Source of the DNA: a virus
Taxonomy: Duplodnaviria; Caudoviricetes
Length of the DNA stretch: 64,000 bases
Virus record (IMG/VR): IMGVR_UViG_3300022217_000228
Location: 9,347-73,346 of that record
Direction: 5' to 3' (one strand)
In this document: positions 36,455-55,810 of the stretch, one piece after another
Layout: each line of letters starts with the position of its first letter
How positions within the stretch are numbered: the stretch's first letter is position 1
Made by a program: the position numbers and the translations under genes
Notes under the pieces: generated by a model
Told to the model about the DNA's origin: nothing
The model's input: the letters and a program-made list of their open reading frames with translations, nothing else
Databases searched by the model: none

Positions 36455-38611
36455 CTATCCCGGTATTGCAGGAGATTCATTTCCAAGTCTGTTTATATTC
36501 TGAACTCGCTGTTCTCTTTCCGTAGGCATTGATTGTTCTTGTGCAGGTCCGACGCTCATTGCTGCAGGTGTTGCTTGTTCTGGAATACTTGGCTGTTGTG
36601 CCCCTCCCTGCATTTTGGCCTGCATATTCTGCATCATTCCTTGAAGCTGCATCTGCATCGATTTCGCTTCCATTCCCTGTGCTTTTAATCCCTCGATTTG
36701 GGTGAACAGCGACAGTATATCACGCATTTCTTTAAGTGTTCGCATGCGCTCAATCTTCAACTGCTCTTCCGGTGTTCTTTCTATGGTACTGAGAAGATCG
36801 TATGTGAGCATCTGGATTTCCTCTTTAAACAATTCCGGATGAGCAGATAGCATCTTGGTTGTATCGAATAGTTCAAGCCTTTTCTCCATGCGTTTTGTCG
36901 GAGAAGATTTTGAAAGCCGAACAACAACTCTTGCGCGTGGAAGATCGCTTATTGAGTTTATATAAACCTTTTCCCTGCCTCCATTTTGATTCGTTCTAAA
37001 TGCAGGAACATTGAATTCAACCTCTCCGCTACCGCCGGCCATAGGGATTTTACGATACAAATCTTTGTACGAGATTTGAGCTTGGTTGTACCATGCTTCT
37101 GCCTTATCCATAAGGAATTGCTGCCAAGCACCGTATAGGCGTAGTGTTCCGAGCTTTGTGATTTCATGGCGCAATTCAAGAAGAATGCCAGATTGATCCC
37201 TTTCGGCAGCCCCTTCGAGTGCAGGAGTAACAGGCGTTACTCTATCAAGCAGGTCGATTATTTCATTAACCTGTCTAAAAATGTGCTCCGGAACTTGTCC
37301 AACTGGAAATAATGCAGCTACATTATCAGGAGGGCCATCAACGGCATGAACGTAATCAGGACGGGTTTTATTCTGCATTATTTTTTGAACACCCTGTTTG
37401 CCGCCAACTTTGTTTTGATCAACAAAGGTTGCTCCTGAAGCGGCAGCAGCAATAACGTCATCCATCTTTGATTGTCGATAATTAAGTGTTCTGTTTAAAT
37501 CGAGGCCGTATTCGAATACGCCTTTTCTTATACCAAACATTTTGTTGGAAGAGAATTCGAATAGACCTATCATCCCAGGTTGTGTAGGATGTTTTCCTCT
37601 GACGAAAACCAAATCAGGTGCAATTCCGGTTAGATCAGGTGATATAATACCATAATAAAGAATATTGTCTTCATACGGAAATTCTCTTATATCTGACCAG
37701 GTTATACCCGTTTTTTCCTTAAAATCACGTACTTGATCTTCCGTTACTTTTAATGGAAATGCAAACCACTCGCCAGTTTGCATTTTTGCATGTAGGCGAG
37801 TGGTTCTTAGCTTTTCAAGCCAACGGTATTCGGTAACGAGATAGCGTGATCCACTTTTTGTCGGCAGGTTTTCCCATGCCCGTACATCATCGCCTTCATT
37901 GGCGTAATCATAGCCTATCGCAAAATCACGTTCGGCGAGTTTTCTTACACTATCATCGCGGCAATCAAGCTCTTCTATCATCATTTCCGGAGTGAGGTAT
38001 CCGTCTATCATGGCCTTACGCCAGTTTCGTATCTCGTTGTCCTGCCAAAAAGGATCCGAAAGAACGGTTCCATCCGTGCAGTGCTTGAAACTTATTGCAC
38101 CTGTTCGTCTGATATCATAATCAAGACACATCATTTGTACACCGGAATGTAGTAACCCCGACATATTTGACTGATTATCTGCTGTTTCATACTTGTACTG
38201 ATCTTTATCGGCGAAATACCAATGCTTTATAGAGTCTATGAGCGTGTTTTCGTCTATATCCAATGCTTTAAAATCGAAATCGAAGCGTTCTGACATCAAT
38301 GAGCCACTTAGGGTTTCCATTTTTTGTTTTAATATATTTATACTTGTTGGGTGACGATCGGCGTTTAGTAGTTGGTTGCGTTCTGTTTCAGGCCACATTC
38401 CTCCGTTAATATCCATGAATGCCTGCATTGCATCATAATATCGTTCTCTTGAATCTTGATGACATGCAAGCCAGCGTGTGTGGAGATCTTCGACATGCCG
38501 AACGAATTCCCCATCAGATGAGCGCATCCGCATGGAGGTTTTAGTGTTTATGTTAGCTTTTTCTATCGGGAATTCTATGTCGGAAGTGAGATGTAGTGGA
38601 TACTTGTTCAT
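36455..38611 (-). CDS. Portal protein (P22-like size)
   Basis: 718 aa helical protein; 'GGMW...RHPTSINILKQK' N-terminus; Q/M-rich C-terminal barrel; first large gene of head module. Confidence 0.8.
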   Translation of the reverse strand: MNKYPLHLTSDIEFPIEKANINTKTSMRMRSSDGEFVRHVEDLHTRWLACHQDSRERYYDAMQAFMDINGGMWPETERNQLLNADRHPTSINILKQKMETLSGSLMSERFDFDFKALDIDENTLIDSIKHWYFADKDQYKYETADNQSNMSGLLHSGVQMMCLDYDIRRTGAISFKHCTDGTVLSDPFWQDNEIRNWRKAMIDGYLTPEMMIEELDCRDDSVRKLAERDFAIGYDYANEGDDVRAWENLPTKSGSRYLVTEYRWLEKLRTTRLHAKMQTGEWFAFPLKVTEDQVRDFKEKTGITWSDIREFPYEDNILYYGIISPDLTGIAPDLVFVRGKHPTQPGMIGLFEFSSNKMFGIRKGVFEYGLDLNRTLNYRQSKMDDVIAAAASGATFVDQNKVGGKQGVQKIMQNKTRPDYVHAVDGPPDNVAALFPVGQVPEHIFRQVNEIIDLLDRVTPVTPALEGAAERDQSGILLELRHEITKLGTLRLYGAWQQFLMDKAEAWYNQAQISYKDLYRKIPMAGGSGEVEFNVPAFRTNQNGGREKVYINSISDLPRARVVVRLSKSSPTKRMEKRLELFDTTKMLSAHPELFKEEIQMLTYDLLSTIERTPEEQLKIERMRTLKEMRDILSLFTQIEGLKAQGMEAKSMQMQLQGMMQNMQAKMQGGAQQPSIPEQATPAAMSVGPAQEQSMPTEREQRVQNINRLGNESPAIPG

Positions 38612-38886
38612 GTCATATCTTCCATTATATATTCTACTGATTTATTTTCATCCATTAATCGTACAGATCTTACGCCTTCTGAAACAACGGCGACACTATC
38701 AAAATTAAAGTGTTGTGTTATTGGCAATAATTTAGCAGTTATACCACCATTTTTATTTATATCAACCTGTACCCATCTGTTGCATTTTCTGTCACCACAA
38801 TGCACCCAAAACCTCTTTTGGTGTGGATCATATGCTATAAGTATCTTGGGATATTGGTGGTTCGGACAATTAATTCGCACTTTCAT
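38608..38886 (-). CDS. Small Cys/His zinc-ribbon protein
   Basis: CPNH...HCGDRKC; overlaps the portal start. Confidence 0.5.
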   Translation of the reverse strand: MKVRINCPNHQYPKILIAYDPHQKRFWVHCGDRKCNRWVQVDINKNGGITAKLLPITQHFNFDSVAVVSEGVRSVRLMDENKSVEYIMEDMT

Positions 38887-38982
38887 CTACTATAATAATA
38901 GTACTTAAGCGCAAAAATAAATAGTGACGCTACTCCACAGGTAGCATGATTTTAAAAACTAACTATGTAAACGGTAGGAAAA

Positions 38983-39648
38983 CTAGGTGCCGGAAACAAT
39001 TCTCCAGGTGCGTTGATTATCCCATTTTTGGATAATGCAAGCTACCTGTTTTCTGCTGCTTCCGCCTTGGGGGATTGGCCAACATGGGTATTCCCAATCC
39101 AATACGTGGCCGAATTTTTCGGGGATTTGCACTTTAATCTTTTTGAAGTCTACCCACATTAATTTATTAACGTAATCAGACGGGATGCCGAGGGCTATCG
39201 CTTCGGTTTCATCGTTATATCCCCATCTGTTTGAATCGAATTTTGATTCTCTTACCCATCTGCCGCTTTTGGACCACCACCAGAATCCTTGAAAATTGAA
39301 ACCTATCCAGTGACAGAACTTTGCTCTCTTTGCCCCGCGCCTTAGTGTAAACCATGTGGCCATATCAGTATCTTTTCTTCTCGCTACTTTCTCGCGGGAG
39401 AAAAACATGTTCTTTTCCCTGAGGTATTCTATATAATCATCAAGTTGTTTCTTGGTGATACCATCAGCATGGATGCACATATCGATGTCGTTGTCATGGC
39501 CTATAAAATCGTTTTCGCGTATGATACCGAGAAGAAGGCCGAAATTAACGAAGAGTTTATCTTTTATACCAGCTTTTTCTGCGCATTCGTAGCATATGGA
39601 CAGATCCTCTGTAGCGTACAATTTTCTCTGATAATCAAAAAAAGCCAT
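38983..39648 (-). CDS. LicD-family phosphotransferase
   Basis: 'FGLLLGIIRENDFIGHDNDIDM' matches the LicD GTLLGAxR...DxDxD motif. Confidence 0.85.
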   Translation of the reverse strand: MAFFDYQRKLYATEDLSICYECAEKAGIKDKLFVNFGLLLGIIRENDFIGHDNDIDMCIHADGITKKQLDDYIEYLREKNMFFSREKVARRKDTDMATWFTLRRGAKRAKFCHWIGFNFQGFWWWSKSGRWVRESKFDSNRWGYNDETEAIALGIPSDYVNKLMWVDFKKIKVQIPEKFGHVLDWEYPCWPIPQGGSSRKQVACIIQKWDNQRTWRIVSGT

Positions 39649-39658
39649 TAATGTCCTT

Positions 39659-39791
39659 TTTCACAACGGTCCGCGAATATGTGCAGTGCTGGAGCCATCC
39701 GGCTTATTTACGCGCCTTTGGGCTGGTGCCGAAACCCGCATAATCCAACTTAGTAGCACAACCAGCATTGCATATATTCGCTGTTGTATGT
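39659..39791 (-). repeat. Solo attC-like site T
   Basis: (+) TTTCACAAC-GGTCC-GCGAATATGTGCAGTGCTGG ... CCAGCATTGCATATATTCGC-T-GTTGTATGT; same geometry as the array sites. Confidence 0.8.
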
Positions 39792-39916
39792 TGAAGGAGA
39801 TTTCCTCCATAGTGTAAAAGCGATATGTTAATTATTTTTCCCGGACGGAACGGCCTTATCCGATGTTCCGTATATTTGATAATTAACTCTCGGATGCGAT
39901 ATCGCATTACAACCAT
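39704..39916 (-). CDS. Solo cassette ORF (70 aa) reading into attC T
   Basis: AAGGAG RBS after GTTGTATGC cassette start; ends HTTANICNAG...KARK inside the hairpin. Confidence 0.5.
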   Translation of the reverse strand: MVVMRYRIRELIIKYTEHRIRPFRPGKIINISLLHYGGNLLQHTTANICNAGCATKLDYAGFGTSPKARK

Positions 39917-39940
39917 AAAAGAAATCTCCTTTTGCATACA

Positions 39941-39969
39941 ACTATATTAGTGTGAAATATATTATTCAA
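39941..39969 (-). promoter_or_regulatory. sigma70-like promoter TTGAAT-N17-TATAGT; -10 overlaps the G^TT cassette junction
   Basis: -35 at 39964-39969, -10 at 39941-39946, 17-nt spacer. Confidence 0.6.
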
Positions 39970-40001
39970 GTAATGCACTACATAATTAGAACAATGTCAT
40001 T

Positions 40002-40703
40002 CTATTTCAAGCCTTTACAAGTCTTAATTTTTTTCACCCACGGAGTCATACTCTGTCCTTTATAATACTCCCTGAACCGCCACGATGGCGAATACCAGGT
40101 GTCAAGCAGGTGTCCGATTGCAAAAGGGAGTCTCATGGTTAATCCCGATTCAGATCCGAATACTGGCATTTTCCAGGTACCTAACTCAGTTAGCATGAGT
40201 TCGCGTCCAGGCTTACCAATCTTTCTTTCCTTCTCTATTACTTCCTGAGATGGGAGAAGCCATTCTTTCTTCACCCCTTTGAACACATATTCCGGTGGAA
40301 CCTTCTGTCCGGTTTTCTTTGTATCATATGTGTGATACAGCAACTCTCCTACTGGGACCCAGAAGTACACGTCTATAGTTGGGGTGCCTTTTAGGAAATC
40401 CTCACCGGGTTTAAGGTGCACGTTAAAACACTTGCCGTTAATGTCATTAACACACATCTTTTTGGCCTTGTATCCATGGCCTGTGAATGAGTTGATAAGC
40501 TTGTTTTCATCACAAGCGCCATAAATGACACCGATATCAATATCATAATTGAGGGAGAAAGTTTTATCACAAATGTATTCGAGCATTCCGCCAAAGCAAT
40601 GGCACCACCATACTTTATGGCCCATATTATCTTCCATCATATCCATTATGTTTGTAACACTATCAAGAACCATTTTGGCGAGTTCAACTTTTTCATCAAC
40701 CAT
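40002..40703 (-). CDS. LicD-like nucleotidyltransferase-fold protein
   Basis: 'FGGMLEYI...YDIDIGV', 'IDVYFW'. Confidence 0.6.
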   Translation of the reverse strand: MVDEKVELAKMVLDSVTNIMDMMEDNMGHKVWWCHCFGGMLEYICDKTFSLNYDIDIGVIYGACDENKLINSFTGHGYKAKKMCVNDINGKCFNVHLKPGEDFLKGTPTIDVYFWVPVGELLYHTYDTKKTGQKVPPEYVFKGVKKEWLLPSQEVIEKERKIGKPGRELMLTELGTWKMPVFGSESGLTMRLPFAIGHLLDTWYSPSWRFREYYKGQSMTPWVKKIKTCKGLK

Positions 40704-40983
40704 ATAGGCTCCTCATTTTTCTATCCATATACGGCAATTCATTTTTTAATTGATAGACAAGCCAATCTCTTATACTCATAGGTAACTCAAATTTACTATG
40801 CTTGAACAACTTTTTCTCGCCATCTTCAAATGTTAAAACATATTCAATAGATGGTTCATATATTGAGTCTGATATTGATACTTTTTTTAATTTGTGCTCA
40901 GTAATATTCAATCTATTAATTGATATAATAGTTGCCTTAAACTGCATATCTGAATATCTTAAATCAAAAGGAAGTTTAGCCAT
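40696..40983 (-). CDS. Hypothetical protein
   Basis: 95-aa ORF overlapping both neighbours. Confidence 0.45.
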   Translation of the reverse strand: MAKLPFDLRYSDMQFKATIISINRLNITEHKLKKVSISDSIYEPSIEYVLTFEDGEKKLFKHSKFELPMSIRDWLVYQLKNELPYMDRKMRSLYG

Positions 40984-41908
40984 AAATTATCAACTCCCGG
41001 AGATGTTTTGCCGCTACTGGAATTGATAACTCGTTATCATAAGTTTCTCTGAGTTTTAATCGTTTATATGCAAGATCAGATTTTTTAATCGCTACAGCTA
41101 CAGTATGCCAGAATGATTTTGAATCCACTGTTCGAACCGGATACTTCTCTTTCCAAAATTGACAAGAATCTAAGGCGATAACCGGAATGCCGCAGGCCAG
41201 TGACTCTGGAATTATTCGTGGGCATGAATCTTCGCTTGTGTATGGGGCAATAATCACCTTGCATTTAGATATCGCTCGTGGCATTCGATCGTGCTGTATG
41301 TATTTTACCGAGAAGTTTGAAGGAGATCGGCAGGCGTGTCCCATTTGGAGAATTTTCAAGCCTTTCGGAGCAGTTTTATGCACCCATGAGACACGCTTCC
41401 GCTTATCCTTCGGCCATATTGCGGAAAATCCTACATCGTATTTTTTTTCGACAGTACGTGGAAAAAACTGTGGAGTTGCAGGTTTAATGAATAATTTCCC
41501 ATTCAATCCGCGCTTTCTGCATTTTCTAACCTGTTCTTCGCTGTCACAGAGGATCAGATTGTATTTAATACCGTCCTTTGGGATACATCCGTGGTTGGCA
41601 CCGTAGTAGACTTTCTTAGCTCGTGGATATTTTTTTAGTAAAGGAACGTATTCTTTGAATCCTCCACGAGCAATAACTATATCAGGACAATCAGCTTTAT
41701 ATCCTTTAAAAGATTTAGTTCCAGATTCAACAAAATTAGAACGATAATAAACTCTCCTATCATCATTACTATATAAAACCCTACCATAATCTTCTTCACT
41801 GACCACTCCGGCAAACAGATGGGTCCACATGTCCGTGCACTCATCGAGTGAGTTCCAGGCACATTCTTTATGCCGTTCCATGCGGCCTCTAAGAAATAGC
41901 CAATTCAT
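40976..41908 (-). CDS. GT-B glycosyltransferase
   Basis: 'DSCPRIIPESLACGIPVIA'. Confidence 0.75.
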   Translation of the reverse strand: MNWLFLRGRMERHKECAWNSLDECTDMWTHLFAGVVSEEDYGRVLYSNDDRRVYYRSNFVESGTKSFKGYKADCPDIVIARGGFKEYVPLLKKYPRAKKVYYGANHGCIPKDGIKYNLILCDSEEQVRKCRKRGLNGKLFIKPATPQFFPRTVEKKYDVGFSAIWPKDKRKRVSWVHKTAPKGLKILQMGHACRSPSNFSVKYIQHDRMPRAISKCKVIIAPYTSEDSCPRIIPESLACGIPVIALDSCQFWKEKYPVRTVDSKSFWHTVAVAIKKSDLAYKRLKLRETYDNELSIPVAAKHLRELIIYG

Positions 41909-44532: not shown

Positions 44533-45495
44533 TCACTTCACCACCTCAATCAATTTCTTCATACACTGTTCTCTGCTACCTATTTTACTTAATATAAGCT
44601 CTTTGTGGGCTTCGTTCAAGGAATTATCGGCTTCTTCAATTGCTTCAACTGCGCTATCTACGTCGAGTGCTTTGTATTTCAATGCTGTTACGCCATCTAT
44701 GCAGTGATCGCTGCAGCCGGCAAGAGAAGCATCCGGATAAACTATTGCACAACCACAAAGAGCAGCTTCTATAGGAACATTATGTAGTCCTTCTTTTGTA
44801 CTCGTGCACACCCATGTTCCAACTAAGTTGTACATTCGAATTAAATCGCTGTACTGTGCGTTTTTCACAAACCAATCAAATCTCTTCTTCGTGAACACTT
44901 TTATTTTATGATTAAGATCGACTCCGTAACCATAGTATTTGTACTTTTTCCCAAGTTTTTTTATTACTTCCATGGCGAATTCGAAGTGTTTGCGTTTTTT
45001 GCTGGAAACGAGGAATCCAATGCTTTTTGGTTCGTGGAGTTTGAGATCGCGCCATTTTTTCAGATCCACACCTTGGTACACTACATCTACCGGTTCAATA
45101 CCATGGCGCATAAACCACGTATATAGATCCTCGCTATTTACTATTACTTTAATCTTTGCAGCTTTTTTTAGAATTTTTCTTTTTGGCATGCTGTGGTTCT
45201 CAACTAATCTGCAGTACCAATAGGCCTTAGCTTTTTTCGGCATTGTTTTTAGCATAGGGTCAATGTCGCTTACTGAGCATGCTATGCATACATCGGTATC
45301 AGAAGGAATGTGTCTTAATGGTTTTTTATGTTTAATCCACGTACATTTATCTGAATGAGTAACTATATGTGTTTTATGCCCCAGCTTAGTAAGAGTTTTA
45401 CATGACATTATTATGGTTTTAGAACCACCTGTTTTATTAAGACCGCCATAATAGTGATGTTGACATGCAAATATTATTTTCATACTTTTATCCAA
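44533..45495 (-). CDS. GT4-like glycosyltransferase
   Basis: 'GGSKTI', 'EGLHNVPIEAALCGC'. Confidence 0.82.
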   Translation of the reverse strand: MDKSMKIIFACQHHYYGGLNKTGGSKTIIMSCKTLTKLGHKTHIVTHSDKCTWIKHKKPLRHIPSDTDVCIACSVSDIDPMLKTMPKKAKAYWYCRLVENHSMPKRKILKKAAKIKVIVNSEDLYTWFMRHGIEPVDVVYQGVDLKKWRDLKLHEPKSIGFLVSSKKRKHFEFAMEVIKKLGKKYKYYGYGVDLNHKIKVFTKKRFDWFVKNAQYSDLIRMYNLVGTWVCTSTKEGLHNVPIEAALCGCAIVYPDASLAGCSDHCIDGVTALKYKALDVDSAVEAIEEADNSLNEAHKELILSKIGSREQCMKKLIEVVK

Positions 45496-45917
45496 GCTAT
45501 TTTTTTAGCTTTTTCCAGAGTGATAGACTTTCCTCTTCTGAATTCTATTGTCGGATATTTAAACATGATGCAGTCTTGTTTGTGCACCCATAAAACGAAA
45601 GACCAGTGATTGCAAGCGTGCCACGATAAAAAATTTTTGACTTGATCGTCTGATAACCTACTGTGAAAAAGTTTATCACTATCGCATAATTTTACTTCGA
45701 TGAATGCCGGAAGCCAAAAACCATCTTGCGGGATAGAGCAGATGAAATCACACGGTGTCCCCCCGGTGTGAACAACTCTATTGTACTTTTTAATGAACAC
45801 CTTTTTTGTTTCCAGCTTATGCACATTTTCGAAGCTGTTTTCTTTGAAAAACCAGCGCGCCCGATCTTCTCCGAATTTACCGAGTTTCTGAGGGTTGACT
45901 AGTTGCATTTTCATCAA
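45480..45917 (-). CDS. PD-(D/E)xK nuclease, Holliday-junction resolvase (RecU/RusA)-like
   Basis: 'GKFGE...CDFI...FIEVK'. Confidence 0.6.
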   Translation of the reverse strand: MMKMQLVNPQKLGKFGEDRARWFFKENSFENVHKLETKKVFIKKYNRVVHTGGTPCDFICSIPQDGFWLPAFIEVKLCDSDKLFHSRLSDDQVKNFLSWHACNHWSFVLWVHKQDCIMFKYPTIEFRRGKSITLEKAKKIAWIKV

Positions 45918-46269
45918 ATAAATCGATCGTTGTATTGTTGTTATTTGAATTTCTATTATTCATATGTTTTAACAGATCAAGTCTTAGGTGGCAACGTTGA
46001 CACAGAGCTATTAAATTTTGTTTAGTACTATTCATTTTATTTCCATCAATATGATGCACAGTAAGAACTATTTTAGTTTCTTTAAAATCGACACCACATT
46101 CGTCTAATGTTTCTGTATATTCCCATGGATGCGAATAATCACTATTAAACCTGCCGACAATAATACCGTTTGGAGCAAAGCACAGCTCACACTTATTACC
46201 AGCATCTTTGATTACCTGTTTTGATAGCCATTTCCAATTTTCTGGATATTCTTTGTAATCTATTGGCAT
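45877..46269 (-). CDS. HNH endonuclease
   Basis: CELC ... 'LTVHHIDGNKMN...NLIALCQRCH'. Confidence 0.8.
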   Translation of the reverse strand: MPIDYKEYPENWKWLSKQVIKDAGNKCELCFAPNGIIVGRFNSDYSHPWEYTETLDECGVDFKETKIVLTVHHIDGNKMNSTKQNLIALCQRCHLRLDLLKHMNNRNSNNNNTTIDLFDENATSQPSETR

Positions 46270-46308
46270 CTTATTTCATCCACCACGTTAAGGTTAATAT
46301 TATTGCAT

Positions 46309-46539
46309 TCATGCCGGTGTGGATTCGTTGTCATATTTTGTCAATTCAACTACTATAGGCTCACTATTGAGATATCTTCTTAATTGGCTGGCACACCGAA
46401 AACAAATGTGTATATTGTCGGTACAACCATAACCACCGATAGTGAAATCATATAAATTGCTAAAATGTAGGCCATACAGCTTTGTTGGTTCGATGTCCTC
46501 ATTGCAGATGTTACACCTATACAGTTTTTTCATTGCCAT
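46309..46539 (-). CDS. Small zinc-finger protein
   Basis: CNIC ... HICFRC. Confidence 0.5.
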   Translation of the reverse strand: MAMKKLYRCNICNEDIEPTKLYGLHFSNLYDFTIGGYGCTDNIHICFRCASQLRRYLNSEPIVVELTKYDNESTPA

Positions 46540-46643
46540 TGATTACTCCTATTTAAATACTCCCGGAGACTTTCACCGCCGGGCCGGTGTCCCACTTTTG
46601 TTTTTATAACCTCGTTCAAAGTGTGGCTTAATGTCGAGGTGTA

Positions 46644-47624
46644 TTATGACAAAATCATTTCTGCTTCGACATAGGAAGCACGCAACTCAGAAACATGATT
46701 AGTCGTCATTTTCTTTTTTAATTCAGGAGTTATTTCTTTTCCGAGTTTTTTTAAATCGTCCAGAGATTCGCACAATACAATTCTCCCTTTGTATTTTTTA
46801 AGAATTGTGGTAGATTCAGACTCTTTTAGTGCGTCTTCTTTGGTTATTTGTTCGGCGTCTATTGCTGCTGTTTCATCTTCTGATTTCATGGCAGCCTGCT
46901 TACCGCCAAGAAGAGGAAGAAGTGGCTTGATAAGGTTGTCATAATTAGGCGAAATTATTGTACGACCTGATAGTATCCCGGTGCGATCCTTCTCAGCAAA
47001 TGCTGTGATTGATGCCAAACCACCCTTTTTGTCTTTAGTTGACTCCATGTGCATTAGAATGTGTGGCTCGTATGGTGTTTCACCTTCTGCCTTCATTTTA
47101 GTGCCAATGTTTTTTAATTCGCCTGTTTCTTCATCTTCTTCGAAGTCGTTGCCCTGTCGACCGCATATAATCACATGCATTGGAGAAGAAAGAAGGTAAT
47201 TGATTAATTCTTTATAGGGTTTTTTGATTTTTCCCCAAGCATGAAAAGGAATCGTACCTGCTGATGTAATTTTTCCTTTGTATGCCTGTTTTGACGCTTC
47301 CCAGATGTGAGTTATAGAGTCTATGATTATTATTCCATACTCATTTGGATTAAGTCCTTTTACGTCGCTAATTACTTCTGTAATGGAGCGGGTATAATTA
47401 GCATCAAAATCAAAGGCTCTCGGGTGTACTTTTCTTTCCTCCACATCCTTGCAGTAAAAATCTGTTCCACGCTCAGTATCAACAAATGCTATTCGTTTTC
47501 CGGTAAACGCTGCTAATCCTTCGGCACATAGGAGCGCCGTAAATGTTTTCCCGCTTCCTGATTTCCCATAAAAACCGATTTTTAATGCTGCTTGCTCTGC
47601 CTTTGCTTTTCTAAATCCAGCCAT
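46644..47624 (-). CDS. AAA ATPase, Sak4/AAA_24-like recombination protein
   Basis: Walker A GKSGSGKT, 'FVDTERG', Walker B 'IIIDSITH'; start MAGFRKAK. Confidence 0.8.
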   Translation of the reverse strand: MAGFRKAKAEQAALKIGFYGKSGSGKTFTALLCAEGLAAFTGKRIAFVDTERGTDFYCKDVEERKVHPRAFDFDANYTRSITEVISDVKGLNPNEYGIIIIDSITHIWEASKQAYKGKITSAGTIPFHAWGKIKKPYKELINYLLSSPMHVIICGRQGNDFEEDEETGELKNIGTKMKAEGETPYEPHILMHMESTKDKKGGLASITAFAEKDRTGILSGRTIISPNYDNLIKPLLPLLGGKQAAMKSEDETAAIDAEQITKEDALKESESTTILKKYKGRIVLCESLDDLKKLGKEITPELKKKMTTNHVSELRASYVEAEMILS

Positions 47625-47637
47625 AATTAAATCCCTT

Positions 47638-47772
47638 TCACCTATTGCATAATTGTAAATGGACAAATCTTTCTTTAATCTCACAAAACGATTTTACCCA
47701 CTGCTTATCAGATTTTCTTTTAACCACGATTCCACAGTGTACACACCTGTATTTTCTGATTCGTATTTTCAT
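47638..47772 (-). CDS. 44-aa ORF inside site Z (MKIRIRKYRCVHCG...)
   Basis: ATGA-coupled to upstream cassette ORF; CxxC. Confidence 0.45.
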   Translation of the reverse strand: MKIRIRKYRCVHCGIVVKRKSDKQWVKSFCEIKERFVHLQLCNR

Positions 47773-47787
47773 TGCTGTGTTATAGGC
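47640..47787 (-). repeat. Degenerate terminal attC-like site Z
   Basis: R''-like GCCTATAAC at 47779-47787 matches its cassette start (GTTGTAGGC), but stem and R' are eroded. Confidence 0.4.
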
Positions 47788-47957
47788 TGTTGGCAAGATT
47801 CCTCATTTCTTAAAATGCGAGGACAATCACCCTCTTCACAACGATGTGTTTCGTTAATTCTCGACAAACAAACATAGCCCAAATTACCCCCATGACAGCG
47901 TTCACGCGCATTACAAAACCATTTGAATTTATCGAAATCTTCATTTAATAGAAGCAT
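47769..47957 (-). CDS. Cassette ORF, Cys-rich 62 aa
   Basis: Ends QQPITQQ across R''. Confidence 0.55.
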   Translation of the reverse strand: MLLLNEDFDKFKWFCNARERCHGGNLGYVCLSRINETHRCEEGDCPRILRNEESCQQPITQQ

Positions 47958-47986
47958 TTTACTCCAATCGTTTTGAATTGCCTATT

Positions 47987-48123
47987 GCCTACAACGTTTG
48001 CGAAATGTGCGCCGTTAAAACCTATAGCCACAATGAGGACACGATTCAACGGTATCCACCTTGATTAACTTACGACAACCAGGGCACGGCTCTTTTAATG
48101 GCGCACTTTCTGCTGTTGATGGT
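47987..48123 (-). repeat. attC-like site A
   Basis: (+) GCCTACAAC...AAATGTGCGCCGTTAAAA / TTTTAATGGCGCACTTT...GTTGATGGT. Confidence 0.8.
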
Positions 48124-48299
48124 TGTGCTACGGGTTCCACAGTGTAATCAGCGCTCGACAGGAAATTTTCCAACCCTCGTAATTCTGCCTGTGCTGCCCG
48201 TTCACAACCGAGTTTAACTTCATTACCTGCTAATTGTTCAACAGCTATACTACTGGAAATAACCTTTAATCTGGACTCGATATATTCTGATAGTTTCAT
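48015..48299 (-). CDS. Cassette ORF with attC-encoded zinc ribbon
   Basis: ...STAESAPLKEPCPGC...CPHCGYRF. Confidence 0.6.
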   Translation of the reverse strand: MKLSEYIESRLKVISSSIAVEQLAGNEVKLGCERAAQAELRGLENFLSSADYTVEPVAQPSTAESAPLKEPCPGCRKLIKVDTVESCPHCGYRF

Positions 48300-48334
48300 A
48301 ATTGCGTTTATCCAATCTATTTAAGAGTAGCATT

Positions 48335-48511
48335 TCCACCAACGGACTAGGCATCCGCCCGAAGTTGCCGTTCTAAAAATTCGTGATACATTTCTGCCAT
48401 AAAAACAACATCATCTTTAATGCCACCTGCTCCAATTTCCCACAAATATTCAATAAATGATTCCTTATTGTCTTCCCATAACGGCAATTTTGGGCTGCCT
48501 GGGTTGGTGGA
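48335..48511 (-). repeat. attC-like site B
   Basis: (+) TCCACCAAC...GGCATCCGCCCGAAGTTGCCG / CGGCAATTTTGGGCTGCC...GTTGGTGGA. Confidence 0.85.
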
Positions 48512-48628
48512 TGCGTTTTCGACCTTAGTTAAAGCTTCTTTTATGCGATACCACGAATCAATAACTTTTTCTGGGTGACAAATATATTTAAAACTTGAGT
48601 CTATCGTTTTTATGTCATCAGTAAGCAT
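48347..48628 (-). CDS. Cassette ORF translating the whole of attC B
   Basis: STNPGSPKLP...RQLRADA; stop 4 nt before the crossover G. Confidence 0.6.
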   Translation of the reverse strand: MLTDDIKTIDSSFKYICHPEKVIDSWYRIKEALTKVENASTNPGSPKLPLWEDNKESFIEYLWEIGAGGIKDDVVFMAEMYHEFLERQLRADA

Positions 48629-48653
48629 AAAAGACTCCAATCAACTGAACGTT

Positions 48654-48731
48654 TCCACCAACGTCTTGGCATACCAGAAGTGCGTCAGCATTTGGGAGAG
48701 GCTTCCGAACCTGCTATTGTTTGTTATAGGC
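48654..48731 (-). repeat. attC-like site C (weak stem)
   Basis: (+) TCCACCAAC...GCATACCAGAAGT / GCTTCCGAACCTGC...GTTATAGGC. Confidence 0.65.
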
Positions 48732-48737
48732 TGTTTG

Positions 48738-49271
48738 TCAACCATCCTTATTATCCTTTTTGGAGGCGGTCTTAGCATTAGCACAAAAATCTAACCATCC
48801 TTCCTTATTACCTGTTTTCAAAAATGGCTCTGCTGCGGCTAATACCTGAAGCGCGTTCGTGTAATATGTAAGACCTTCTCCGTGACTGCCCCAAAGGTTA
48901 GTAATTCCAAGGCAGGAAGCTAACGCCGATATCGTTGCCCCATGAGCAGACTGTAGAACATCAGAGCCGTTTTTGAATATCCAATCGAGGTTAGATTTTT
49001 GTGTAGCTTCTTCTTTCTCCTCATTTCCCCATTGCTGCAATAGATCCATACGATCCGATTGAATTAATTCTAATTGTTGCTCGTAATACCATGACGATTC
49101 GCCTCTACCTTTTATATGAATGGTATATTGTTGCGATTCGCGTTTACCGCCTCCATATTGGTCTTTATATGACCCAATTACAATAGCGTAACAGTCTGAT
49201 TCAAAATGTGACATCGTGGGACCGAGGTCTTTTATTACGTGAACAAAGTCTCCTTTGTGATATTTTTGCAT
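48738..49271 (-). CDS. Cassette ORF, 177 aa hypothetical
   Basis: GGAGG RBS; N-terminal 'KYHKGDFVHV' resembles SH3-like phage proteins. Confidence 0.65.
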   Translation of the reverse strand: MQKYHKGDFVHVIKDLGPTMSHFESDCYAIVIGSYKDQYGGGKRESQQYTIHIKGRGESSWYYEQQLELIQSDRMDLLQQWGNEEKEEATQKSNLDWIFKNGSDVLQSAHGATISALASCLGITNLWGSHGEGLTYYTNALQVLAAAEPFLKTGNKEGWLDFCANAKTASKKDNKDG

Positions 49272-49312
49272 TAGTAGCCTCCAAAACTACAATATAAAAC
49301 GGTTGATAAATT

Positions 49313-49451
49313 GCCTATAACGGTTTGCGAAATGGCCGAAGTAGTGCACCCGCCGAAGCTCCCGTTGAGCTTGCACTGTTTATGTCGGGTTAGTGCGCGG
49401 CCCACGTCGGAAGTATCGAGTGCACTATTTTGACCTTTCGCTGTTATTGGC
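49313..49451 (-). repeat. attC-like site D
   Basis: (+) GCCTATAAC...GCGAAATGGCCGAAGTAGTGCAC / GTGCACTATTTTGACCTTTCGC-T-GTTATTGGC. Confidence 0.88.
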
Positions 49452-49653
49452 ATGTTGTTGCCGATTCTATAGCCAACTTTTTTCGCTGGCGTTTATATTT
49501 AATACCTTTCCAACTTGAACAAAATCCATCGCTACTAGTACGAGTATCCTGTAAATCACAGATACCAGGATTGGCGAATTTATCGTTTACCCATTTAGTA
49601 TACCAAGTACAAGAACCGCATCGTTTTTTATGTATCAAAGCGAAAAACTCCAA
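49444..49653 (-). CDS. Cassette ORF, 69 aa Cys-rich
   Basis: CGSCTWY...GICD...FCSSWK; stop TAA lies inside the R'' box. Confidence 0.6.
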   Translation of the reverse strand: MEFFALIHKKRCGSCTWYTKWVNDKFANPGICDLQDTRTSSDGFCSSWKGIKYKRQRKKLAIESATTCQ

Positions 49654-49672
49654 TTCTCAAGAGGCAATAATT

Positions 49673-49753
49673 GCCCATAACGTTCGATGCTACCAGACGT
49701 TTTAATGTTCCGAAGGACAAGCGTCAGCGCCGCTGGTAGCATTTGTTGGCTGC
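49673..49753 (-). repeat. attC-like site E
   Basis: (+) GCCCATAAC-GTTCG-ATGCTACCAG / CTGGTAGCAT-TT-GTTGGCTGC. Confidence 0.82.
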
Positions 49754-49941
49754 TGTGCAGCGTGTTCCGCCATTGCTGCGGCGCATCTATCGGAAAATCG
49801 ATTAAGCGCCGACAATACTCCAGGTTCCAAACAGATACGATCTGTAGGGTTTTCATGATCATTTGCATGTAACCAGATAGCGTATCCATCAAAAAGACCA
49901 TAGACACCATCTCCGAGATAATCTTTCATTACAAATTCCAT
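49702..49941 (-). CDS. Cassette ORF, 79 aa (MEFVMKDYLGDGVY...)
   Basis: Reads into attC E; also in frame with an upstream GTG ORF spanning attC F. Confidence 0.6.
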   Translation of the reverse strand: MEFVMKDYLGDGVYGLFDGYAIWLHANDHENPTDRICLEPGVLSALNRFSDRCAAAMAEHAAQQPTNATSGADACPSEH

Positions 49942-49975
49942 TGCGCCGCCTTTCTGTAAATTTAAGAGCTGCATT

Positions 49976-50078
49976 GAACACAACGTTTCCAGGTTTGGTG
50001 AAGTGCCGCGTGTTTTTGCGGCATTTGCCGAAGGCCGAAGTGAGCTTGCGAACGGAGCACCAAACCTGTGTTGTAAGC
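49976..50078 (-). repeat. attC-like site F
   Basis: (+) GAACACAAC-GTTTC-CAGGTTTGGTG / CACCAAACCTG-T-GTTGTAAGC. Confidence 0.85.
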
Positions 50079-50105
50079 TGTAAACCTGCCCCTGCCTTTT
50101 GCCTT

Positions 50106-50294
50106 TCACGCCGCCGCCTTCTTTTTGTTCTTTTTAAAATATTCCTTCAGTATCACGGATACTGTCTTGTTTCCCGATCTCTCATCCTCTTTCGCCTTTT
50201 TATCTATCATCGTCCAAAGGTTTGATTCAAGATAGATGCTTCGTGACGTCATTTGACTTGTTTTCATATTTTCATCTATTTTGGTGTAAGACAT
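50106..50294 (-). CDS. Ribbon-helix-helix (Arc-like) DNA-binding protein
   Basis: 'SRSIYLESNLWTMIDKKAKEDERSGNKTVSVILKEY'. Confidence 0.6.
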   Translation of the reverse strand: MSYTKIDENMKTSQMTSRSIYLESNLWTMIDKKAKEDERSGNKTVSVILKEYFKKNKKKAAA

Positions 50295-50661
50295 TATGAA
50301 ATATATAAGACTTCCTCTTGCCTTTGTCCTCACTATAAATATTGCTGCTATCACACTTTATTGGAATAGCAATCCAAAGATCATTGTTTTTGTCGGGTTT
50401 ATTATACTTATCCTGCAAAGTTGTATCGAAATGTTGAAATGTCTTACTATTGATATTGACAATTGGCTCAAGTTTAAACTGTATAGAATTGACATCAAGC
50501 TGCTTAGATATCCTTCCAAAAAGGAGAAATACGATGCAAAAGAGAAGAACTATCGTAATAAGGCTAACAGGAGAGTAGTATTCGCTGAACCTGTCTTGAT
50601 AATACTGCAAGTCACGGTTTGTCTCGGTACCTTGTTTATTCTCTTTTGGGGAGCTATTCAT
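50272..50661 (-). CDS. Single-TM membrane protein
   Basis: AGAGG RBS; TM segment LITIVLLFCIVFLLFG. Confidence 0.45.
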   Translation of the reverse strand: MNSSPKENKQGTETNRDLQYYQDRFSEYYSPVSLITIVLLFCIVFLLFGRISKQLDVNSIQFKLEPIVNINSKTFQHFDTTLQDKYNKPDKNNDLWIAIPIKCDSSNIYSEDKGKRKSYIFHNVLHQNR

Positions 50662-50851
50662 TTTTCCTCTATTTTTTAACCTCATCATGCACTATTAAAT
50701 AATGTTAAAAATGATTATTCTTTTCAGTATGAAAACGTTGCTTCCTGGCTATCCGAGAATTATTAATAGCCATTGTTATCATTCATTTTATATTCCTTTT
50801 TATTCTAACTTGTCTTTCGGCGGCGTCTTCCTGTCTTCGGGCAGGTTTTTT

Positions 50852-50984
50852 GCTTACAACGGGTTGCCGCACTCGCCAGCAGTACCCCACCGGAATAGTT
50901 TGCATTACCGGCAGCCTCGCACTTCTCGAACGTAGCGATCTCGTCCCAGAGCTTGAGGTATTGCTGGCTGCGGCTGTTGTACGA
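50852..50984 (-). repeat. attC-like site G
   Basis: (+) GCTTACAAC...CCGCACTCGCCAGCAGTACC / GGTATTGCTGGCTGCGG...GTTGTACGA. Confidence 0.82.
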
Positions 50985-51119
50985 TGTAAAGTGAGCTTCC
51001 TTAGTGTAAGCACAATCCAGCTTCGGAAGAAGTCTAATTTCACTTTTTGAAAAGTGCTACGACTTGAAAGTCCACTGTTTGGTTTAATTGTGCTTATTAA
51101 CATGAAAGCTCACTTTATT

Positions 51120-51264
51120 TTGTACAACGGCTTCAGGCACCCGCCTGCCGTGGCCGATAGAAATCGTCTGCATCTCGAATACAATGATTTGCACCTAAAA
51201 GGCAACACTGCCCCTTTTTATTATCACAATCGTCAGGACATGGCAGGCTGCCTGGGTTAGAAGC
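51120..51264 (-). repeat. attC-like site H
   Basis: (+) TTGTACAAC...GGCACCCGCCTGCCGTG / CATGGCAGGCTGCC...GTTAGAAGC. Confidence 0.82.
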
Positions 51265-51456
51265 TGTGGGCTGGGTTCCGCTGCCTTTTGAAATTTTACG
51301 AAGTAACGTACCACCAAACATTAACGGATAAACACCTACAGCTTGCCCGGCATATAAAAAACTACACTTCCCAGGCTCCTTCAACTCTATTACAACCACA
51401 TCACCGACTTTAGAGTATCCGTTACCAGCTTCTCTATATCCCGGTATATTAATCAT
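51133..51456 (-). CDS. Cassette ORF translating the whole of attC H
   Basis: GGAGG RBS; ...ASNPGSLPCPDDCD...PRQAGA. Confidence 0.6.
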   Translation of the reverse strand: MINIPGYREAGNGYSKVGDVVVIELKEPGKCSFLYAGQAVGVYPLMFGGTLLRKISKGSGTQPTASNPGSLPCPDDCDNKKGQCCLLGANHCIRDADDFYRPRQAGA

Positions 51457-51492
51457 AGTAAAATTTCCTCCAATAAATTTAAGAGTCGCATT

Positions 51493-51650
51493 GCTTCTAA
51501 CGTTTGCGAAACGTGCGCCGTTACTTGAAACACGGTTTATTAGCATAACAATGTAGATTTTTATTTTTAATAGTACATTCATCATAATAACAACACGGCC
51601 TTGCGCTCCATTCTTCGTATTCTAATGGCGCACTTTCTGCTGTTGGATGC
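51493..51650 (-). repeat. attC-like site I
   Basis: (+) GCTTCTAAC...GCGAAACGTGCGCCGTTA / TAATGGCGCACTTTCTGC-T-GTTGGATGC. Confidence 0.85.
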
Positions 51651-51820
51651 TGTTGCTCGGCGCTCCCCTTGCCCTGCCGGGCTTCACCGCAGTACAATTC
51701 CATAACATCAGATACGTATAAATATCCACGCTTATCCCCATGAAAAGCTACCTTCACACTATTTAAACATGCATCGTTTAACTTATTATCGATTAAAAAC
51801 TTCTGTTCCTTAGATCCCAT
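51521..51820 (-). CDS. Cassette ORF reading through attC I
   Basis: ...HPTAESAPL...CCYYDEC...PCFK. Confidence 0.6.
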   Translation of the reverse strand: MGSKEQKFLIDNKLNDACLNSVKVAFHGDKRGYLYVSDVMELYCGEARQGKGSAEQQHPTAESAPLEYEEWSARPCCYYDECTIKNKNLHCYANKPCFK

Positions 51821-51865
51821 AAAAACTACCTTTTACCCGGCCTTTAACATGGCCGCCGAGCAATT

Positions 51866-52622: not shown

Positions 52623-52652
52623 TGCCTATTTATTCTCCAAGAGGGCGGTATT

Positions 52653-55809: not shown

Positions 55810-55810
55810 A

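What the first reader, a model, noticed from the sequence alone, without database searches (positions are those of the whole stretch)
39659..39969. Solo cassette inserted exactly at a promoter -10 box, outside the main array
Seen: a full unit (GTTGTATGC start, RBS, 70-aa ORF, attC hairpin whose R'' CATACAAC matches the start). Its final GTT runs straight into the licD RBS (GTTGTGAAAAGGACATTAATG). The insertion point is TATAG^TT, the -10 of a TTGAAT-N17-TATAGT promoter. The upstream flank TATATTTCACA-N8-GTTGTA repeats the head of the main array (TATATTTCACA-N9-GTTGTA). Inference: independent evidence that an integrase acted on this phage genome at a second attI-like site, placing a cassette first in the licD-portal-capsid transcript.
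Basis: partly seen in the sequence, partly recalled or inferred. Interest (0 to 1): 0.8.

Follow-up and report, generated by a model that had tools for sequence, protein, structure and literature searches.

The report
Lone integron-like cassette in a phage
A 275-base unit wedged between two phage genes is built like the roughly 18 hairpin-bounded gene cassettes elsewhere in this genome and carries the same recombination scar. This suggests that integron-style gene capture acted at several places in a phage that encodes no integrase of its own.

Summary
The unit is real. All features are on the minus strand, between the stop of a 233-aa gene (40002) and the ATG of a LicD-like gene (39648).

- **What is there:** a head motif TATATTTCACA-N8-G|TTG, then a 275-nt unit (39941-39667). 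The unit has an RBS, a 70-aa ORF with no homologue, and a 129-nt imperfect hairpin (39789-39661).
- **Same family as the array:** the hairpin follows the grammar of the sites in the 47995-55542 array: nnnnAAC, 1 nt, L stem ... L stem, 5 nt, GTTnnnn. A covariance model built from five array sites, without the solo site, finds it full length (E 0.007 in the window).
- **Recombination scar:** its inverse core matches its own 5' start (5/6 variable positions) rather than the adjacent core (2/6). The whole array shows the same offset (permutation p<5e-5).
- **Head motif:** it occurs exactly three times in the 73-kb genome, each time just before a first crossover.
- **Relatives:** the gene junction is empty (1-15 nt) or holds unrelated small ORFs. 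None has this unit or the head.
- **No recombinase:** no tyrosine or serine recombinase, HUH transposase or reverse transcriptase is encoded.

Verdict: a solo cassette of an integrase-less, integron-like system. Phage attC clusters are a known kind (Qi 2023), but the site geometry here is non-canonical. The promoter claim and the pre-existing-target claim remain unproven.

The parts
40002..40703 (-). Upstream core gene p233 (233 aa, no Pfam/PHROG match). Its stop codon at 40004-40002 marks the left edge of the variable slot.
   Evidence: It is 66-68% identical in relatives L003/L004. In L010, L011 and L017 its stop lies 1-15 nt from the licD ATG.
39941..39969 (-). Sigma-70-like consensus match TTGAAT-17-TATAGT. 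Its last T is the first base after the crossover G.
   Evidence: 9/12 matches, and the region has no excess of such matches over shuffles. Function not shown.
39943..39961 (-). Head motif TATATTTCACACTAATATA, followed by the crossover G at 39942 (G|TTG). It is one of three exact copies of TATATTTCACA in the genome, each 8-9 nt before a first crossover. It is a candidate attI-like entry site or array promoter/operator.
   Evidence: The other copies are at window 55562 (-) and genome 4583 (+). No further copy appears even with 2 mismatches in this genome. There are 0 exact hits of the longer H1/H2 form in viral contigs or genome contigs.
39667..39941 (-). The 275-nt solo unit, from the TT after the left crossover G (39942) to the right crossover G (39667).
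   Evidence: Boundaries come from the G|TT logic. Homology to relative L004 resumes at AAAAAGGACATT, 6 nt after the right G.
39783..39942 (-). Hairpin 1, with 44-nt imperfect inverted arms (39942-39899 and 39826-39783). The 5' arm holds the RBS and ATG. It looks like an inverted duplication of the unit's 5' end. The perfect palindrome ATGCGATATCGCAT lies inside it at 39907-39894.
   Evidence: (I1, the longest inverted repeat in the window).
39704..39916 (-). 70-aa ORF (77 aa from ATG 39937) preceded by AAGGAG (39931-39926). It reads through the inverse core as ..ACA ACA G.. and stops 36 nt before the right crossover.
   Evidence: no family; no homologue among 5.8 billion proteins apart from itself; same frame and stop placement as most array ORFs.
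39659..39791 (-). attC-like folded site. R'' ATACAAC 39789-39783; spacer A 39782; L'' 39781-39762; variable loop; L' 39692-39673; 5-nt bulge GGACC 39672-39668; R' G|TTGTGA 39667-39661.
   Evidence: CM R1, built without this site, gives 22.3 bits, full length, E 0.0066 (window) and 0.024 (240 kb). nhmmer half-profiles. Geometry 1/5 with 6/6 L-box pairs. The fold equals the array sites.
38983..39660 (-). LicD-like gene (221 aa) with its leader AAAAAGGACATTA directly after R'. It is followed by a 92-aa ORF and the P22-like portal gene (36455-38611).

Best explanation
The 275-nt stretch 39941-39667 (minus strand) is a single gene cassette of the integron-like system that also built the roughly 18-unit array at 47995-55542 and a two-unit array in the left arm of this 73-kb phage genome.

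Each unit starts with TT after a crossover G. It carries its own RBS and a small ORF. It ends in an imperfect hairpin with conserved AAC and GTT triplets: an R box, a 1-nt/5-nt unpaired spacer, an L box and a variable loop.

Inferred mechanism:
- The hairpin folds in single-stranded DNA and is cut and exchanged at G|TT by a structure-specific recombinase of the integron-integrase type.
- The phage encodes no such enzyme, so it is presumably supplied in trans by the host.
- A circular unit is thereby inserted behind a hairpin-less head motif (TATATTTCACAyAAy..TAG|TTG) that acts as the entry site.

The result is a cassette placed directly upstream of licD, portal and capsid genes. It is transcribed by read-through and/or from a possible promoter overlapping the head. 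Its own RBS and ATG are buried in a roughly 20-bp helix of hairpin 1.

Shown: family membership, conserved covarying structure, the offset complementarity, the three heads, and variability of the slot in relatives. Inferred: the enzyme, the circular intermediate, the direction of the event, and expression.
For: 1. Structure: the 129-nt site has the same architecture as the array sites. That is AAC + 1 nt + stem ... stem + 5 nt + GTT, with 6/6 L-box pairs.
2. Independent recognition: a covariance model from five array sites finds it full length with exact ends, E 0.0066 in the window and 0.024 in 240 kb. It is the third-best non-training hit. All 6 non-training hits with E<0.6 are on the gene strand, inside the array or at this unit; the matches above that are weak and include opposite-strand readings of two training sites.
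3. Covariation on 13 aligned hits: 89% of cells paired against 67% in shuffles (0/500). All six L-box pairs change on both sides. Slid controls give 25-42%.
4. Recombination signature: the complement of R'' matches the unit's own start at 5/6 variable positions, against 2/6 for the adjacent R'. Over 18 units the means are 4.8 and 3.0. As run, own start is better in 12, tied in 5 and worse in 1; that one rests on a 1-nt coordinate slip at 52922 and would probably score in favour once corrected (not re-run). Permutation p<5e-5.
5. The head motif TATATTTCACA occurs exactly three times in the genome, each 8-9 nt before a first crossover.
6. The ORF crosses R'' in the modal frame and stops inside the site, like the array ORFs.
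7. Relatives: the p233-licD junction is empty in L010, L011 and L017. It holds unrelated ORFs in L003, L004, L009, L015 and L018. Contigs with an identical licD protein differ in slot content.
8. The hairpins fold equally well or slightly better on the non-coding strand. This fits a DNA-level rather than an mRNA-level structure.
9. Precedent: attC clusters without an integrase exist in virulent phages and recombine with IntI1 (PMC9892861).
Against: - No tyrosine recombinase, integron integrase, serine recombinase, Y1 HUH transposase or reverse transcriptase is found in the genome, which is 96% complete. Pfam scans of 30 further ORFs show only HNH, DUF559, Sak4-like and IstB-like proteins.
- The site departs from canonical attC. 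R' is GTTGTGA rather than GTTRRRY. The unpaired spacer is 1 nt against 5 nt instead of 5-6 nt on each arm. The extra unpaired bases sit on the L'-R' arm, not near L'' (against PMC5027507).
- The exact predicted empty site was not found, and all empty relatives also lack the head region.
- The two left-arm units do not obey the offset rule well.
- The 44-nt inverted repeat of hairpin 1 goes far beyond what cassette logic predicts. The 8-nt start/R'' match is therefore not fully independent evidence.
- No homologue of the unit, the site family or the head exists in any collection searched.
Confidence: 0.6

Rival explanations
1. The unit belongs to the repeat family but was not inserted by a site-specific enzyme at a pre-existing entry site. 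Instead, a block of about 330 nt (AT-rich leader, head motif, unit and hairpin) was copied or moved into the p233-licD junction. The route would be homologous or illegitimate recombination between the repeated 30-50-nt hairpin arms, as phage mosaicism usually arises.
For: - In every relative with an empty junction, the head/leader stretch 40001-39943 is missing too. The difference from them is therefore the whole 353-nt gap, not just the 275-nt unit.
- The same slot holds unrelated ORFs without such hairpins in other relatives, so ordinary insertion and replacement happens here.
- The L'-R' arm of the unit is 89% identical over 28 nt to the first left-arm site, giving a substrate for homologous exchange.
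- No recombinase gene is present.
Against: - Homologous exchange between repeats does not predict that each inverse core matches its own unit's start rather than the neighbouring core.
- The right end of non-homology to L004 falls within 6 nt of G|TT.
- The head motif is exact in three places and always at the same distance from a first crossover.
Confidence: 0.2
2. The hairpins and the head motif are expression signals, not recombination sites. The head is a phage-specific promoter or operator at the start of three transcription units. The hairpins are inter-cistronic terminators, RNase processing sites or translational regulators. Here they would regulate licD-portal expression, and the 70-aa ORF is incidental.
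For: - The three heads each precede a block of co-oriented genes.
- Hairpin 1 buries the RBS and ATG.
- One head overlaps a sigma-70-like match.
- Hairpins lie between cistrons, and attC sites are themselves thought to act as weak terminators (PMC9892861).
Against: - There is no Rfam match.
- The element is absent from all relatives, so it is not a conserved regulator of this operon.
- Both strands fold equally, so there is no G-U asymmetry favouring the mRNA.
- No T-run follows hairpin 2.
- A signal that must fold would keep R'' complementary to the adjacent R', yet the adjacent match is poor and the offset match is good.
- The other two heads lack a comparable -35 by eye.
Confidence: 0.12
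3. Hairpin 1 is a small palindromic selfish element (MITE-like, or the relic of an inverted duplication) that landed next to an unrelated hairpin. The resemblance to a cassette is partly coincidental.
For: The 44-nt terminal inverted arms at 75% complementarity are the longest in the window. No other unit shows more than about 10 nt of start/R'' complementarity.
Against: - There is no second copy in this genome or elsewhere.
- There is no target-site duplication at the arms.
- No transposase is encoded.
- The arm ends coincide exactly with the G|TT start and the inverse core of a site that a model recognises independently.
Confidence: 0.05

Closest known systems
Integron gene cassette with attC site (canonical, bacterial; Nivina et al. 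2016, PMC5027507)
   Same: - Promoter-less small ORF followed by an imperfect hairpin with R and L boxes.
- Invariant AAC and GTT triplets, a variable terminal loop, and a length of 129 nt (within 57-141).
- Crossover placed at G|TT.
- Inverse core complementary to the unit's own first bases (hybrid R').
- Sites within one array resemble each other, as in sedentary chromosomal integrons.
   Different: - R' is GTTGTGA, with T at position 5, rather than GTTRRRY.
- The unpaired central spacer is 1 nt against 5 nt rather than 5-6 nt on each arm.
- The extra unpaired bases are on the L'-R' arm, whereas canonical extrahelical bases sit near L''.
- The ORF reads through most of the site.
- No integrase or canonical attI is nearby.
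- Recombination is untested.
Clusters of attC sites lacking an integrase (CALIN) in temperate and virulent phages (Qi et al. 2023, PMC9892861); single-attC CALIN (Neron et al. 2022, PMC9024848)
   Same: attC-type sites and cassettes are carried by a phage with no integron integrase. Co-oriented units sit among phage genes, and one array cassette encodes a DNA methylase fragment. Single sites outside arrays are accepted as possible true positives.
   Different: - The published cases have at least two sites each (the paper's minimum) and were detected by the canonical attC model. Whether that model detects these sites could not be tested here.
- This genome has about 18 + 2 + 1 units at three loci, each behind the same head motif, plus a clear offset-complementarity record.
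Cassette insertion at non-classical genomic attG sites (Loot et al. 2024, Nat Microbiol 9:228, as cited in PMC12901181)
   Same: A lone cassette lies outside any array, inserted at a GTT-containing site where an upstream promoter could express it.
   Different: Here the target is not arbitrary: it shares an exact 11-nt motif with the heads of the two arrays. This suggests a dedicated entry site. No IntI is known for this system.
Promoter-early stem-loop (PeSL) modules that flank small early genes in T4-type phages (Arbiol et al. 2010; from my own knowledge, not checked here)
   Same: Repeated stem-loop-containing intergenic modules bound small accessory genes in a hyperplastic region of a phage and are thought to mediate shuffling.
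   Different: PeSL shuffling works by homologous recombination between conserved sequences. It predicts neither AAC/GTT-bounded hairpins of free sequence nor offset core complementarity.

Membership tests
This genome's own hairpin-bounded cassette family (array 47995-55542) | Site recognised by a sequence-plus-structure model built from array sites only | tested here: met
   CM R1 from 5 array sites finds 39659-39791 (-) full length, 22.3 bits, E 0.0066 (window, filters off) and 0.024 (240 kb). nhmmer half-profiles give E 0.15 and 1.1 in the right order and strand.
This genome's own hairpin-bounded cassette family (array 47995-55542) | Geometry AAC + 1(-2) nt + L stem ... L stem + 5(-4) nt + GTT | tested here: met
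   The solo site has spacers of 1 and 5 nt and 6/6 L-box pairs. 16 of 18 sites share this geometry.
This genome's own hairpin-bounded cassette family (array 47995-55542) | Inverse core complementary to the unit's own 5' start rather than to the adjacent core | tested here: met
   Solo 5/6 against 2/6; array mean 4.8 against 3.0; permutation p<5e-5.
This genome's own hairpin-bounded cassette family (array 47995-55542) | First unit preceded by head motif TATATTTCACA + 8-9 nt + G|TTG | tested here: met
   There are three exact copies in the genome, at the heads of the main array, the left-arm array and this unit.
Canonical integron attC site | Conserved 5'-AAC-3' and 5'-GTT-3' triplets in paired R'' and R' | tested here: met
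   These columns are invariant in all sites.
Canonical integron attC site | R and L boxes that pair, with structure conserved and sequence free | tested here: met
   89% of cells paired against 67% in shuffles. All 6 L-box pairs have compensatory changes.
Canonical integron attC site | Consensus R' GTTRRRY and R'' RYYYAAC | tested here: not met
   The solo R' is GTTGTGA and R'' is ATACAAC, with T/A at the fifth position. Most array sites are GTTRKnn. Definition from PMC5027507.
Canonical integron attC site | Unpaired central spacer of about 5-6 nt on each arm | tested here: not met
   1 nt on the R''-L'' arm and 5 nt on the L'-R' arm. Definition from PMC5027507.
Canonical integron attC site | Two or three extrahelical bases near L'' | tested here: inconclusive
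   The solo L stem has an internal mismatch but no clear bulged base. In several array sites a single bulged base lies on the L' arm. This was judged by eye on MFE folds.
Canonical integron attC site | Recombined as folded single strand by an integron integrase | not testable with these tools
   Needs an attC x attI conjugation assay, as in PMC9892861.
Complete integron | intI (tyrosine recombinase with the IntI-specific insertion) adjacent to attI and the array | tested here: not met
   PF00589 and TIGR02249 give no match at E<=1 in the 73-kb genome, while the same searches matched in all 14 control genomes (PF00589 above its cut-off; TIGR02249 only below its).
Phage CALIN as published (Qi et al. 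2023) | At least two attC sites called by IntegronFinder/HattCI, with no integrase | not testable with these tools
   The IntegronFinder attC model is not available here. Absence of an integrase was tested and met.
Known structured RNA family (Rfam) | Match to a curated covariance model | tested here: not met
   No match reaches the gathering score in the window, and only chance-level hits appear in 38500-41000.
Intrinsic terminator | GC-rich stem followed by a T-run on the gene strand | tested here: not met
   Hairpin 2 is followed by GTTGTGAAAAAGG. No gene-strand terminator is called in 39650-39970.

The most novel reading that the evidence does not exclude
This phage lineage runs a cassette-capture system of its own that is only analogous to integrons. 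Its folded-DNA sites have a mirrored asymmetry (1-nt/5-nt spacer, extra bases on the L'-R' arm). It has at least three dedicated hairpin-less entry sites sharing an exact 11-nt motif. Its recombinase belongs to no recognised family (or is a host enzyme with a new specificity). The system would let a virulent phage place accessory genes both in its early region and directly ahead of its structural operon.
Probability: 0.25. Interest if true: 0.88.

Novelty: new variant of a known kind. Interest (0 to 1): 0.66.

Why it matters
Integron-type cassette capture is regarded as a bacterial device. Only a few small attC clusters have been reported in phages.

This genome shows three separate loci, each behind the same head motif, and a junction-by-junction record of crossover at G|TT, including this lone unit next to the portal operon. 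That makes two claims testable:
- A phage genome can be a repeated target of cassette recombination.
- Phages could use or ferry cassettes.

The non-canonical site geometry and the missing integrase raise a concrete question: which enzyme acts here, a host IntI or something new? The solo unit is the smallest, cleanest substrate for that test. It has one head, one 275-nt unit and one hairpin, and the empty and circular junctions are predictable.

Tried and rejected
- **Rfam.** Evalue mode on 38500-41000 and gathering mode on the whole window gave nothing real. ARAGORN found no tRNA or tmRNA.
- **Base composition.** There is no anomaly across the unit.
- **BLASTN against 50,697 phage records.** Region 38900-40800 gave no match.
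- **Exact-pattern scans.** A 26-nt piece of hairpin 1 gave 0 hits in viral contigs. The 20-specified-base head pattern gave 0 hits in viral contigs and in genome contigs.
- **ORF70.** It has no Pfam or PHROG match and no homologue among 5.8 billion proteins.
- **licD in viral contigs and metagenome contigs.** Only distant relatives turned up.
- **Generic scans for AAC...GTT pairs or short L stems.** These were no better than shuffles and were abandoned in favour of anchored analysis.
- **MAFFT alignments of whole sites.** These mis-registered the 3' arms. Only a five-site alignment was clean enough for a model.
- **Relatives of the Sak4-like gene next to the array.** They carry no such sites. 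The best CM hit, L028:7026-7105, is not a site on inspection.
- **The 84-nt slot of L012-L014.** It first looked like a 59-nt attC (ATACAAC..GTTGTAT). It folds as a plain symmetric hairpin followed by a T-rich run, lacks the 1/5 geometry and gets no CM hit, so I read it as a terminator-like hairpin.
- **The 7-bp inverted repeat TTTCACA/TGTGAAA around the predicted empty site.** The other two heads do not share it, so I do not count it as evidence.
- **Strand-specific RNA structure.** Rejected because both strands fold equally.

Full report
**Setting.** The window is bases 9347-73346 of a 73,346-bp IMG/VR virus record estimated 96% complete. Genes around the finding lie on the minus strand. In order they are two glycosyltransferases, a 95-aa ORF, a 233-aa protein of no family (p233, 40703-40002), a 353-nt gap, a LicD-like protein (39648-38983), a 92-aa ORF and a P22-type portal (38611-36455).

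**Observation.** Read on the minus strand, the gap contains the following.
- A 59-nt AT-rich leader after the p233 stop, holding TTGAAT-17-TATAGT (39969-39941) and TATATTTCACA (39961-39951).
- GTTGTATGC at 39942, AAGGAG at 39931, and an ATG at 39916 opening a 70-aa frame that stops at 39704.
- CATACAAC at 39790-39783.
- GTTGTGAAAAAGGACATTAATG from 39667, whose ATG starts licD.

The region is strongly structured. Folded as 326 nt it gives -110.5 kcal/mol, z = -7.1 against shuffles. It forms two adjacent long hairpins. The first (39942-39783) is built on the longest inverted repeat in the whole 64-kb window, with 44-nt arms (I1). Nothing in Rfam matches.

**The second hairpin belongs to a family.** Fifteen to nineteen junctions between small minus-strand ORFs at 47995-55542 share a 3' motif ending in CGTT followed by rkrGGcAAT. 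Searching upstream of each for the partner of the arm preceding GTT shows one grammar at all of them:
- a 7-9-nt box ending in AAC;
- one unpaired base, sometimes two;
- a stem of free sequence, a variable loop, and the return stem;
- five unpaired bases, sometimes four;
- GTT plus a variable box.

The solo site reads ATACAAC, A, a 20-nt arm, loop, a 20-nt arm, GGACC, GTTGTGA. That is the modal 1/5 geometry with 6/6 pairs at the base of the L stem.

I tested membership without circularity in two ways.
- nhmmer profiles of the 5' and 3' halves of 14 array sites recover the solo halves (E 0.15 and 1.1 over three genomes) in the right order and strand.
- A covariance model from five cleanly aligned array sites (A3, 13 base pairs) finds 39659-39791 full length with the ends I had defined. 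It scores 22.3 bits, E 0.024 in 240 kb and 0.0066 in the window with filters off.

All 6 non-training hits with E below 0.6 lie on the gene strand, inside the array or at this unit; above that come weak matches, including the opposite strand of two training sites. On the model-fitted alignment of 13 hits, 89% of cells pair against 67% in shuffles (0/500). Every L-box pair shows compensatory change, and sliding the partner drops pairing to 25-42%. That alignment leans towards the structure, but the anchored count gives the same picture.

**Recombination signature.** A cassette that circularises and re-enters by crossover at G|TT should carry an inverse core that matches its own first bases, not the bases after the GTT of its own hairpin. 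I compared the six variable positions.
- The solo unit scores 5/6 against its own start (GTTGTATGC) and 2/6 against the adjacent GTTGTGAAA.
- No other start in the genome fits its inverse core better.
- Over 18 units the means are 4.8 and 3.0.
- As run, own start was better in 12, tied in 5 and worse in 1. That one case rests on a 1-nt coordinate slip of mine at 52922 and would probably score in favour once corrected; I did not re-run it.
- No permutation of starts among 20,000 reaches the observed sum.

A hairpin that merely has to fold would keep the adjacent boxes complementary, so this argues against a purely structural or regulatory role.

One caveat is specific to the solo unit. Its start/inverse-core match is part of a 44-nt inverted repeat, far longer than the roughly 10 nt or less seen elsewhere. 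It is therefore not wholly independent evidence, and hairpin 1 remains unexplained. It looks like an inverted duplication of the unit's 5' end, including RBS and start codon.

**Head motif.** TATATTTCACA occurs exactly three times in the genome, and there are no additional copies even with two mismatches. The copies are at genome 4583 (+), window 55562 (-) and window 39961 (-). Each is followed after 8-9 nt by TAG|TTG and then by the first unit of an array: the two-unit left-arm array, the main array and this unit. Whether the motif is an entry site, a promoter/operator or both cannot be decided. Only the solo head has a decent -35, and promoter-like matches in the region are not enriched. The longer H1/H2 form has no exact match in IMG/VR or in 185,579 species genomes.

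**Relatives.** Two IMG/VR phages with 71% identical portals (L003, L004) and a dozen contigs carrying licD homologues at 61-78% identity were fetched. The state of the p233-licD junction varies among them.
- It is empty in L010 (3 nt), L011 (15 nt) and L017 (1 nt).
- It holds an 84-nt terminator-like hairpin in L012-L014.
- It holds two or three unrelated small ORFs in L003, L004, L015/16 and L018, and a small membrane ORF in L009.
- A contig with a licD protein identical to L012's carries two reverse ORFs there.

The junction is therefore a hot spot, and the hairpin is not a conserved cis-element.

However, none of these relatives carries the head or the site family. In the empty ones the p233 stop abuts the licD ATG. 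The comparison thus shows a 353-nt difference, not the predicted clean empty site. Homology to L004 resumes at AAAAAGGACATT, 6 nt after the right-hand G|TT, which fits the right boundary.

The whole early region of this phage (window 45480-62472, including the array) has no counterpart in the two full-length relatives. Relatives of its Sak4-like gene lack such sites.

**Enzyme.** Profile searches of the six-frame genome find no tyrosine recombinase (PF00589), integron integrase (TIGR02249), serine recombinase (PF00239), Y1 HUH transposase (PF01797) or reverse transcriptase (PF00078). The same searches matched in control genomes: all 14 for PF00589 and TIGR02249 (the latter only below its cut-off), 13 for PF00239, 10 for PF01797 and 4 for PF00078. 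Pfam scans of 30 further ORFs give HNH and DUF559 nucleases, a Sak4-like annealing protein, an IstB/DnaC-like loader and methyltransferases, but no recombinase. The system is thus of the integrase-less type, and the acting enzyme is inferred to be a host IntI or unknown.

**Comparison with the known.** Phage-borne attC clusters without an integrase have been described, and five of six tested sites recombined with IntI1 (PMC9892861). Single sites are accepted as possible true positives (PMC9024848). Lone cassette insertion at non-classical genomic sites is known in bacteria (Loot 2024, cited in PMC12901181).

Against the canonical attC definition (PMC5027507):
- The solo site meets the AAC/GTT triplets, the R and L boxes, the variable loop and the length.
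- It does not meet GTTRRRY, or the 5-6-nt spacer on both arms.
- Its surplus unpaired bases are on the arm opposite to the canonical extrahelical bases.

The non-coding strand folds as well or slightly better (solo -54.0 against -47.1 kcal/mol with RNA parameters, -27.8 against -26.1 with DNA parameters). This is compatible with a bottom-strand substrate but not diagnostic. I therefore file it as working like an integron cassette, without claiming canonical membership.

**The ORF.** The 70-aa frame has no homologue. Its RBS and ATG are buried in a helix of about 20 bp. It does cross the inverse core in the frame used by half of the array ORFs (..ACA ACA G..) and stops inside the site as they do. 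Whether it is translated is open.

**Verdict.**
- **Well supported:** this is a solo member of an integron-like cassette family, with the recombination scar, behind a shared head motif, in a slot that is empty in relatives.
- **Not shown:** that an integrase did it, that the target was a pre-existing promoter, and that the site is a canonical attC.

The first-stage notes on this genome describe the main array, the offset complementarity, the left-arm array and the shared head motif. I had derived these points independently and re-tested them afterwards. The notes supplied two extra junction positions, which the models then confirmed.

Noticed in passing
window 47995-55542 (-), and genome 4583-5272 (+) = L027:4583-5272: The main array has about 18 hairpin-bounded units, and a two-unit array sits in the left arm behind the same head motif. 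The two left-arm units obey the offset-complementarity rule poorly (about 5/8), so they may be older or degenerate.
   Followed up: partly
window 39783-39942 (-): Hairpin 1 looks like an inverted duplication of the unit's 5' end (crossover box, RBS, start codon). It has a perfect 14-nt palindrome ATGCGATATCGCAT at 39907-39894 and an inner 7-bp AAC/GTT mini-hairpin (ACGGAAC..GTTCCGT). No other unit has more than about 10 nt of such complementarity. Unexplained.
   Followed up: partly
L003, L004, L009-L018 (p233-licD junction); also licD-portal interval in L015/L016: Both intervals flanking licD are insertion hot spots across this phage group. The states range from empty, to a terminator-like hairpin, to 1-4 unrelated small ORFs in either orientation. 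Contigs with identical licD proteins differ in content.
   Followed up: yes
window 45480-62472: The whole early/replication region (HNH, Sak4-like, array, DUF6948, IstB/DnaC-like and others) has no homologue in the two full-length relatives, which share the structural and glycosylation genes at 50-88% identity. This is a wholesale module replacement.
   Followed up: partly
window 52053-52622 (-): One array unit encodes a 189-aa protein matching only the N-terminal 87 positions of the C-5 cytosine DNA methylase profile (PF00145). It may be a truncated or split methylase carried as a cassette.
   Followed up: no
window 55916-56175: A tandem array with a 12/18-nt period (GCCGKA-type units on the plus strand) lies inside the 75-aa minus-strand ORF 55939-56166. 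It would encode a Gly/Tyr/Ser/Asp-rich repeat peptide just upstream of the main array head.
   Followed up: no
window 60491-61132 (-): A 213-aa ORF carries a prokaryotic N-terminal methylation (type IV pilin-like) motif, which is unusual in a phage early region.
   Followed up: no
L011:1722-1753: A head-like string (TATATTTCAAT + 7 nt + GTTG, 2 mismatches) lies just downstream of licD in a relative that lacks the site family. It may be chance.
   Followed up: no
L009:290-350: In the closest licD relative (78% identity, a 1.2-kb contig) the ATG is preceded by ..TTTCACCGTTGTTATAGGAGG.. and TTACAAC lies 50 nt upstream. This is reminiscent of the family, but the model does not recognise it.
   Followed up: partly
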